Of a stretch of 64,000 nt of DNA, positions 43,760-43,814 are shown one piece after another (the first letter of the stretch is position 1; each line of letters starts with the position of its first letter). The translations under genes and the position numbers were made by a program. Source of the stretch: an uncultured Alphaproteobacteria bacterium. GTDB lineage: Bacteria; Pseudomonadota; Alphaproteobacteria; Rs-D84. The stretch is taken from the NCBI GenBank assembly GCA_947367055.1, contig CANBCI010000001.1:77632-141631 (forward strand), given 5' to 3'. Under the pieces are notes generated by a model that did not search any database, was not told the origin of the DNA, and saw nothing but the letters and a program-made list of their open reading frames with translations.

Positions 43760-43814
43760 GTTTTCTCCTATAACTTACCGGGTTTCGACACCCGAATACG
43801 ACAACCAATCGTAC
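43760..43814 (-). promoter_or_regulatory. Target-only leader matching the copy-2 antisense RNA
   Basis: Minus strand TACGAT-TGGTT-GTCGTA hairpin, CGGG-TGTCGAAA-CCCG hairpin, then TTATAG overlapping the AGGAG RBS. Confidence 0.6.

What the first reader, a model, noticed from the sequence alone, without database searches (positions are those of the whole stretch)
43760..43814. Target-only leader carrying both addresses of antisense copy 2, with site b over the RBS: candidate trans target
Upstream of secreted orphan 43334-43759 are hairpin 1 (loop TGGTT), hairpin 2 CGGG-TGTCGAAA-CCCG exposing TCGAAAC (43782-43788), and TTATAG (43768-43773) overlapping AGGAG. These match site a and the first 6 nt of site b of copy 2, 12 kb away, in the same order, and there is no cloverleaf. 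Pairing of the copy-2 RNA (GTTTCGA, CTCTATAA) would occlude the RBS, as C4 does at its downstream target in P1. This would make the leaders a regulatory network rather than isolated cis switches.
Basis: partly seen in the sequence, partly recalled or inferred. Interest (0 to 1): 0.85.

Follow-up and report, generated by a model that had tools for sequence, protein, structure and literature searches.

The report
Orphan antisense-RNA target site over a ribosome-binding site
The leader of a small secreted orphan gene carries only the two-part "address" half of a very abundant self-addressed RNA leader family, placed over its ribosome-binding site, and it matches best a small antisense RNA encoded elsewhere in the genome, which probably shuts the gene off.

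Summary
Window 43760-43849(-) holds a promoter, hairpin 1, hairpin 2 presenting TCGAAAC, then TTATAG running into the AGGAG Shine-Dalgarno of ORF 43334-43759. It belongs to a family of at least 61 leaders in this 0.96-Mb genome. A normal leader has promoter, hairpin 1, hairpin 2 (site a), site b, a C4/sRNA-Xcc1-like module carrying the complementary b' and a', a terminator, and then a gene. A covariance model built without this leader still finds it. It is the only 1 of 32 hits that lacks the antisense module.

Window copy 2 is only the second-best partner (7+6 nt; duplex -17.8 kcal/mol; rank 28 of 3712 candidate ribosome-binding windows). The best cognate lies outside the window on contig C4:11959-12047. 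It gives 7+12 contiguous nt covering AGGA, -28.2 kcal/mol, rank 1 of 3712, stronger than all 52 cis pairs.

No other clear trans pair turned up, so I see one wired-in target, not a network. The leader plus ORF is a 513-bp indel absent from the closest relative, and the ORF has no homologue. Covariation could therefore not be tested, and no RNA data exist. P1-C4-like occlusion of the ribosome-binding site is the likeliest mechanism (about 0.5). A relic leader is the main rival.

The parts
43822..43849 (-). Sigma-70-like promoter TTGAAA-16-TAATAT (TG before the -10). The -35 overlaps the stop codon of the upstream ybeY-lnt fusion gene.
   Evidence: Pfam of the upstream ORF.
43796..43814 (-). Hairpin 1 of the 5' module (7 bp, loop TGGTT).
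   Evidence: minimum-energy fold. Matched by model R2. In the family this helix covaries: 6 of 7 pairs have double changes.
43779..43794 (-). Hairpin 2, CGGG/CCCG, presenting site a (TCGAAAC, 43782-43788) in and next to its loop.
   Evidence: Site a is complementary to a' (GTTTCGA) of C4:11959 and of window copy 2.
43766..43777 (-). Site b, TAAGTTATAGGA. It is 12 nt complementary to the whole P3 loop (TCCTATAACTTA) of the antisense module at contig C4:11959-12047. It overlaps the Shine-Dalgarno AGGAG (43765-43769).
43334..43759 (-). Regulated ORF: 141 aa, N-terminal signal-peptide-like sequence, no Pfam family, no homologue.
31507..31597 (+). Window copy 2 antisense module (P1 GGTTGGAGG/CCTCCAACC, P3 loop b' CTCTATA, junction a' GTTTCGA) plus terminator. 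It is the second-best, weak partner of the leader.
31410..31427 (+). Copy 2's own cis address: a TCGAAAC, b TTATAGAG.

Best explanation
The leader at 43760-43849(-) is the 'address' half (promoter, hairpin 1, hairpin 2 with site a, site b) of a family of self-addressed leaders, fused directly to the ribosome-binding site of an orphan secreted-protein gene.

Its cognate antisense RNA is the C4/sRNA-Xcc1-like module at contig C4:11959-12047 of the same genome. That module has closing stem P1, hairpin P2, hairpin P3 whose 11-12-nt loop is b', a 7-nt junction that is a', and an intrinsic terminator.

Proposed action: once freed from its own 5' address, by 5' processing as for P1 C4, this RNA pairs a' with the hairpin-2 loop and b' with TAAGTTATAGGA. 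That covers the Shine-Dalgarno and blocks 30S binding. Output of the orphan gene would thus be tied inversely to transcription of the contig-4 leader. Window copy 2 could at most add weak cross-talk.

Shown here: the anatomy, family membership, uniqueness of the target-only form, and complementarity with its rank.
Inferred: expression of both RNAs, processing, pairing in vivo, and repression.
For: 1. Family and architecture. nhmmer finds 61 antisense modules. 52 of 61 have an exact complementary a (>=6 nt) plus b (>=6 nt) 39-108 nt upstream. For 41 of 52 5' modules, their own antisense module is the best of 61 partners. Cis duplexes average -19.2 +/- 2.6 kcal/mol against -8.7 +/- 3.1 for 3120 non-cognate pairs. 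RNAalifold on 24 modules gives P1/P2/P3, with 10 of 17 pairs showing compensatory changes.
2. The leader is a true 5' module. R2, built without it, scores 24.0 bits, E 0.006. It is the only 1 of 32 hits without an antisense module.
3. Cognate. C4:11959 pairs with 7+12 contiguous nt. That ties for the longest of 1105 trans sites with a>=7 and b>=6; the other 19-nt site is an A-rich low-complexity match. It is first of the 85 trans sites whose site a sits in a hairpin. RNAduplex gives -28.2 kcal/mol, rank 1 of 3712 windows, z -8.3, next -19.8. Only 4 of 226,432 module-window pairs are as strong. It is stronger than all 52 cis pairs (best -24.7) and than this RNA's own cis site (-18.9). The cofold dimer uses a:a' and b:b' and gains -12.9 kcal/mol net, against -5.7, -2.8 and -1.8 for three other modules.
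4. Site b pairs 2 nt further than the RNA's own cis site (12 against 10 nt), and the extension lies in the Shine-Dalgarno.
5. The geometry matches the P1 C4 target as described in PMC5320573 (passages read): b' partly occludes the ribosome-binding site and a' binds upstream.
6. The antisense RNA is conserved. Its leader is 96% identical in relative G075, with a, b, a' and b' invariant, while the lnt locus flanks are 84-87% identical.
Against: - No expression or processing data: no RNA run holds the locus.
- No comparative test is possible. The ORF has no homologue among 5.8 billion proteins or in 40 relatives. The whole leader plus ORF (window 43326-43838) is missing from the closest relative, G075, which still keeps the antisense RNA. 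The RNA therefore does not exist for this target, and the match may simply be young.
- The 5' module shares TCGGG...CCC with the cis module of C4:11959, so common descent explains part of the match.
- Only one such pair is seen in this genome, and none among 107 5'-module hits in five relatives.
- In the predicted fold of 5 of 5 full-length leaders, a'/b' are sequestered by the cis a/b. Trans action therefore needs an unshown processing step.
- A relic 5' module without any partner exists at C1:188417.
- The cognate lies on another contig of a metagenome-assembled genome. G075 carries its orthologue, so it does belong to the lineage.
Confidence: 0.5

Rival explanations
1. Relic or by-product. 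The leader is a family leader that lost, or never received, its antisense half when a promoter-plus-address fragment was copied in front of a new ORF. The a/b match to C4:11959 reflects recent common descent. The gene is simply expressed from this promoter, and any pairing is incidental and unselected.
For: - The unit is a 513-bp indel absent from G075.
- The hairpin-2 stem TCGGG is shared only with the C4:11959 cis module among the TCGAAAC-class leaders.
- Decayed leaders exist: C1:188417 has no antisense module and no cognate, and G075:C2:111816 has a truncated antisense module.
- The position downstream of lnt holds ordinary full leaders in 4 of 80 relatives.
- The target-only form does not recur: 0 of 107 hits in five relatives.
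Against: - All 17 address positions that the leader shares with the C4:11959 cis site are identical, whereas hairpin 1 differs throughout and the short non-pairing stretches between and around sites a and b also differ (my comparison of the two sequences printed; not a statistical test).
- Site b extends complementarity to the antisense RNA beyond that RNA's own cis site, exactly over the Shine-Dalgarno.
- With a net -12.9 kcal/mol, pairing would happen whenever free RNA is present, selected or not.
Confidence: 0.3
2. Decoy in reverse. The leader's a-b module acts as a sponge that titrates the C4:11959 antisense RNA away from its own cis address. This would change expression of the contig-4 gene (a 312-aa secreted protein) rather than that of the orphan ORF.
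For: The leader binds this RNA better than its own cis site does (-28.2 against -18.9 kcal/mol). Cis a/b sites already behave as built-in partners of a'/b'.
Against: What cis pairing does to the downstream gene is unknown. Site b sits precisely on the Shine-Dalgarno, which is not needed for a sponge. There are no expression data.
Confidence: 0.1
3. Copy 2 of the window (31507-31573) is the regulator.
For: 7+6 nt of exact complementarity in the right order. Duplex -17.8 kcal/mol, within the range of cis pairs (-14.5 to -24.7).
Against: Rank 28 of 3712 windows. It is 10.4 kcal/mol weaker than C4:11959. In the cofold the dimer does not use a'/b'.
Confidence: 0.07
4. Chance resemblance: an ordinary 5' UTR.
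For: None beyond the short length of the motifs.
Against: - Pattern statistics.
- Full-length match to model R2, which was built without this leader.
- A 19-nt bipartite complement that ranks first genome-wide.
Confidence: 0.03

Closest known systems
C4 antisense RNA of phages P1/P7 and its a2/b2 target at the icd ribosome-binding site (Rfam RF01695)
   Same: - A structured small RNA with closing stem P1 and two hairpins, carrying two short unpaired addresses a' and b'.
- The target has site a upstream and site b over the ribosome-binding site.
- A further a/b pair lies upstream of the RNA in the same transcript.
- The RNA begins with GG(T/C), like the GGW RNase P site described for C4 (PMC5320573, passages read; the P1 details beyond those passages are recalled).
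   Different: - No sequence or structure match to RF01695 (best 14 bits at an unrelated place).
- The target is unlinked, on another contig, not downstream in the same operon.
- The normal leaders here have only the upstream a/b pair and their own terminator before the gene.
- The host is a reduced-genome gut alphaproteobacterium, not a phage.
- There are about 60 copies per genome.
sRNA-Xcc1 (Rfam RF02221), integron-, transposon- and island-borne sRNA of Xanthomonas and Xylella
   Same: - The best Rfam resemblance: 12 copies score 26.2-42 bits with full-length alignment to the 9-bp closing stem and two hairpins.
- It lies upstream of a gene (symE) in cassettes (bioRxiv 10.1101/2025.06.18.660453, passages).
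- It occurs in tandem arrays (Xylella, PMC12189769, passages), as at C4:26936-27736 and C3:144342-145715 here.
   Different: - All scores are below the gathering cut-off of 53 bits.
- The passages I read describe no paired a/b address upstream of Xcc1.
- The taxon and the copy number differ.
Group 1 C4-like sRNAs of Acinetobacter baumannii (PMC5320573)
   Same: Many C4-like sRNA copies in one bacterial genome, processed from longer transcripts, with variable a'/b' thought to retarget them to bacterial mRNAs (passages).
   Different: There the targets are unknown and the copies are near-identical apart from a'. Here each copy has its own cis address, and one explicit unlinked ribosome-binding-site target is identified by sequence.

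Membership tests
C4 antisense RNA (RF01695) | Match to the Rfam covariance model at or above 45 bits | tested here: not met
   one match in the whole genome, 14 bits, E 3.8, at an unrelated place; no C4 hit in the window.
C4 antisense RNA (RF01695) | Two unpaired addresses a'/b' complementary to a target whose site b covers a ribosome-binding site | tested here: met
   for C4:11959 against window 43766-43788. The fold of the isolated RNA puts b' in the P3 loop and a' in the junction.
C4 antisense RNA (RF01695) | 5' processing of a precursor by RNase P | not testable with these tools
   No RNA data. The only pointer is that the modules start with GGT/GGC.
sRNA-Xcc1 (RF02221) | Match to the Rfam covariance model at or above 53 bits | tested here: not met
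   12 copies at 26.2-42 bits, none over the cut-off. C4:11959-12037 scores 28.9 bits. Window copy 3 scores 31.9 bits.
Self-addressed leader family of this genome (defined here) | 5' module: promoter, hairpin 1, G/C-closed hairpin 2 presenting site a, then site b | tested here: met
   R2, built without this leader, scores 24.0 bits, E 0.006, full length. Fold.
Self-addressed leader family of this genome (defined here) | Own antisense module (P1-P2-P3 with b', a') and terminator downstream of the address | tested here: not met
   There are 8 nt between site b and the ATG, and no R1 hit at the locus. This is what makes it target-only.

The most novel reading that the evidence does not exclude
The roughly 60 leaders form a natural set of orthogonal, self-clamped riboregulators. 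Each primary transcript hides its own antisense addresses by pairing a:a' and b:b'. After processing, the small RNA is free to act. Any gene could then be wired to any leader simply by copying the roughly 30-nt a-b module onto its ribosome-binding site. On this reading, the leader at 43760-43814 is the first captured case of such rewiring: a newly inserted orphan secreted-protein gene placed under control of a pre-existing RNA on another replicon or contig. That would show how post-transcriptional networks are born in a reduced genome with few protein regulators.
Probability: 0.25. Interest if true: 0.85.

Novelty: new variant of a known kind. Interest (0 to 1): 0.6.

Why it matters
C4-type antisense control is known mainly from one phage operon, where the RNA and its target share a transcript. 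Here a reduced-genome, uncultured gut alphaproteobacterium carries about 60 such RNAs; its relatives are named Candidatus Enterousia, and the lineage is described in PMC12306168 (passages). Each RNA has its own two-part address.

At one place, the address alone sits on the ribosome-binding site of an unlinked, newly acquired gene. If the pairing works, it is a clean natural example of how a cis element becomes a trans regulator by module copying. It also offers a ready-made set of orthogonal RNA-target pairs.

If it does not work, the locus still documents how these leaders decay and recombine. Either way, the specific partner to test has changed from window copy 2 to contig C4:11959-12047.

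Tried and rejected
- Rfam at gathering threshold gave only two tRNAs in the window. A weak Hammerhead_1 hit in the 5' module of copy 3 (15.3 bits) is not shared by copies 1 and 2 (read), so I dropped it.
- A first loose bipartite-complement scan was swamped by chance and low-complexity hits. A hand-made hairpin descriptor gave 4299 hits and was abandoned.
I replaced it with 3712 candidate ribosome-binding windows. That set needs an SD-like motif and an ORF of at least 60 aa, so other targets could be missed.
- The top outlier of that scan (C1:178652, -41.1 kcal/mol) is the opposite strand of the RNA gene itself. I set it aside as an artefact.
- Covariation between target and antisense RNA could not be tested. 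There is no homologue of the ORF and no target-only site in 60 same-genus genomes searched with the exact pattern.
- No RNA holder is listed for the locus. DNA contigs of three runs from one study cover the leader, which reads the same in the two contigs that span it (X2 43214-43980, whose one difference lies in the ORF at 43374; X3 43572-43979, no difference). That gives no information on constraint.
- Nine 5'-module hits in relatives lacked a listed antisense hit, so I read them. Four have an unlisted antisense module, one has a truncated module, three have a different downstream element with a b'-like complement, and one looks like a terminator. None abuts a ribosome-binding site. The R1 list was cut (59 matches not shown).
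- R2 models the short type-A leaders only. Type-B target-only sites were sought only with nhmmer and RNAduplex.
- I found no paper on this RNA family in this lineage. Supplements were not available.
- Complex prediction, structure prediction and atlas searches were not used; they do not bear on an RNA-RNA claim.

Full report
**What is at the coordinates**

I read the minus strand of window 43200-44100. The ybeY-lnt fusion gene (43846-45825; Pfam YbeY + LNT_N + CN_hydrolase) is followed by these features:
- a promoter, TTGAAA-16-TAATAT (43849-43822), the only promoter-like site in 43200-43950;
- hairpin 1 (43814-43796, loop TGGTT);
- hairpin 2, CGGG-tgtcgaaa-CCCG (43794-43779), with TCGAAAC at 43782-43788;
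- four nucleotides, then TAAGTTATAGGAG, whose last five letters are the Shine-Dalgarno;
- five more nucleotides and the ATG (43759) of a 141-aa ORF with a signal-peptide-like N-terminus.

RNAfold gives both hairpins. The pattern TCGAAAC N2-12 TTATAG occurs 3 times in the window against 0.03 expected.

**What family it belongs to**

- promoter, hairpin 1, G/C-closed hairpin 2 presenting site a, and site b;
- a spacer of 40-110 nt;
- a structured module with an 8-9-bp closing stem (P1), a hairpin P2, a hairpin P3 whose loop is b', and a single-stranded junction that is a';
- an intrinsic terminator, then a ribosome-binding site and a gene.

The gene most often encodes a small secreted, often Cys-rich protein, and sometimes an HTH protein.

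Rfam recognises the module only weakly, as sRNA-Xcc1. Twelve copies score 26.2-42 bits against a cut-off of 53. It is not recognised as C4.

With nhmmer I found 61 modules in the 959,553-bp genome. A covariance model of 24 of them (R1) finds 53. RNAalifold supports P1-P3, with compensatory changes in 10 of 17 pairs. The two 5' hairpins also covary: 89.2% of cells pair against 70.5% in shuffles, and 0 of 500 shuffles reach that.

The family is lineage-wide. R1 matches 33 of 36 same-genus genomes (2-45 hits each) and 11 of 24 genomes from other families of the order. Relatives found through the Lnt protein are named Candidatus Enterousia or uncultured Alphaproteobacteria from animal guts. This is a group with reduced genomes (PMC12306168, passages).

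**The addresses are real**

- 52 of 61 modules have an exact complement of a' (>=6 nt) followed by one of b' (>=6 nt) 39-108 nt upstream.
- For 41 of 52 5' modules, their own antisense module is the best of 61 possible partners.
- Cis duplexes average -19.2 +/- 2.6 kcal/mol. The 3120 non-cognate pairs average -8.7 +/- 3.1.
- In 5 of 5 full-length leaders folded, the minimum-energy structure is a "clamp". Here a pairs with a' and b with b', and the 5' arm of P1 pairs with an upstream anti-arm instead.

The antisense addresses are therefore predicted to be masked in the primary transcript and exposed only in the isolated module.

**Is the leader of the finding one of these?**

Yes, but only the first half of one. 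Model R2 of the 5' module was built from 22 other leaders. It finds this leader over its full length (24.0 bits, E 0.006). It is the only one of 32 hits that is not followed by an antisense module (coordinates checked). Site b runs straight into the Shine-Dalgarno.

**Which RNA matches it?**

Not chiefly copy 2. Six modules share a' GTTTCGA; they differ in b'. The module at contig C4:11959-12047 has the P3 loop TCCTATAACTTA, the exact complement of TAAGTTATAGGA in the leader.

| Measure | C4:11959 | Window copy 2 |
|---|---|---|
| Contiguous complement (a + b) | 7+12 nt | 7+6 nt |
| RNAduplex with this leader | -28.2 kcal/mol | -17.8 kcal/mol |
| Rank among 3712 candidate windows | 1, runner-up -19.8, z -8.3 | 28 |
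| Net gain in cofold | -12.9 kcal/mol, through a:a' and b:b' | -5.7 kcal/mol, dimer does not use the addresses |

Further points on the C4:11959 pair:
- Its 19 nt ties for the longest of 1105 trans sites with a>=7 and b>=6. The other 19-nt site is A-rich low complexity.
- It is first of the 85 trans sites with site a in a hairpin.
- Only 4 of 226,432 module-window pairs are as strong. One of those is the opposite strand of an RNA gene.
- It beats all 52 cis pairs and the RNA's own cis site (-18.9 kcal/mol, 7+10 nt).

**Is there a network?**

I see one pair. No other module has a comparable outlier among the 3712 windows. In five relatives (G003, G016, G042, G047, G075), 98 of 107 R2 hits had a listed R1 hit just downstream. 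The remaining 9, read one by one, include no address module on a ribosome-binding site.

**History of the locus**

- The ORF has no homologue.
- In G075, the closest relative found, the lnt gene and the downstream region align at 84-87% identity. Window 43326-43838 is replaced there by about 47 unrelated nucleotides.
- G075 keeps the contig-4 leader at 96% identity with unchanged addresses, but it has no second site.
- In 4 of 80 other relatives, a complete leader sits right after lnt.
- Among the TCGAAAC class, the hairpin-2 stem TCGGG is shared only with the contig-4 cis module.

So the address was most likely copied from that leader, or a close paralogue, when the unit arose. The antisense RNA is older than this target.

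**Mechanism and its standing**

By anatomy this is the P1 C4 arrangement: a' binds upstream and b' covers the ribosome-binding site (PMC5320573, passages). The difference is that the target is unlinked.

I rate repression by the contig-4 RNA at about 0.5. Three steps are inferred:
- the RNA is made;
- it is freed from its cis address (in P1, by RNase P; here the only pointer is that the modules start with GGT/GGC);
- it meets the mRNA.

The main rival (0.3) is a young relic whose match is inherited and unselected. Relic 5' modules do exist (C1:188417; a truncated leader in G075). Against this rival, site b pairs further than the cis site, exactly into the Shine-Dalgarno. All 17 address positions the leader shares with the contig-4 cis site are identical, while hairpin 1 and the short non-pairing stretches around the addresses differ. 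That comparison is my own reading of the sequences, not a statistical test. A sponge role (0.1), copy 2 as regulator (0.07) and chance (0.03) follow.

**What could not be done**

No RNA run holds the locus. DNA contigs from three runs of one study show no difference in the leader. My literature searches found nothing on this family in this lineage. Citron & Schuster (1990) and Hartmann et al. (1995) were not read; I cite them only through PMC5320573.

**Verdict**

It is a new variant of C4/Xcc1-type antisense control, embedded in a remarkably expanded leader family that deserves study in its own right.

Noticed in passing
whole genome G000; window copies at 4602-4808(-), 31378-31601(+), 37087-37304(-): At least 61 C4/Xcc1-like self-addressed leaders in a 0.96-Mb genome, about one per 16 kb. 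Each has its own a/b address. The family is present in 33 of 36 same-genus genomes searched.
   Followed up: partly
window 31380-31600(+) and 37090-37300(-); also C4:11870-12050: Full-length leaders are predicted to fold into a clamp (a:a', b:b', plus a hairpin of an upstream anti-arm with the 5' arm of P1). This excludes the modular fold (hairpin 2, P1, P3). Seen in 5 of 5 leaders folded. What this does to the downstream gene is unknown.
   Followed up: partly
G000 C4:26936-27736 and C3:144342-145715 (outside the window): Tandem arrays of antisense modules. Several sit directly behind a promoter and have no cis a-b module. These are candidate pure trans-acting RNAs, reminiscent of the tandem Xcc1 homologues reported in Xylella (PMC12189769 passages). 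None had a strong ribosome-binding-site target.
   Followed up: partly
G000 C2:264790-265090 (outside the window): One leader has its 34-nt a-b module duplicated after its terminator, about 95 nt before the start codon and not over the ribosome-binding site.
   Followed up: partly
G000 C1:188417-188463 (outside the window); L112 (G075:C2:111716-112172): Decayed leaders: a type-B 5' module with no antisense module and no cognate, and, in a relative, a leader whose antisense module lost its 5' half.
   Followed up: partly
L052, L062, L063, L087 (about 4550-4815 in each): In 4 of 80 relatives a complete leader lies directly downstream of ybeY-lnt, the same position as the target-only leader here, driving unrelated genes.
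   Followed up: partly
window 43846-45825(-): A single 659-aa ORF fuses endoribonuclease YbeY with apolipoprotein N-acyltransferase (LNT_N + CN_hydrolase). Full-length relatives exist in 80 loci.
   Followed up: no
window 18808-18866 and 18999-19057: An exact 59-nt direct repeat that begins in the 3' end of tRNA-Lys (18753-18828), with a second 38-nt repeat at 18861/19053. It looks like a small duplication or an attachment-site scar.
   Followed up: no
G000 C1:52157, C3:144194, C2:47363, C2:198306, C5:16542 (outside the window): Several leaders precede small helix-turn-helix (XRE-like, judged by eye) ORFs rather than secreted proteins. This hints at a mobile-element or immunity-region origin of the leader type.
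   Followed up: no
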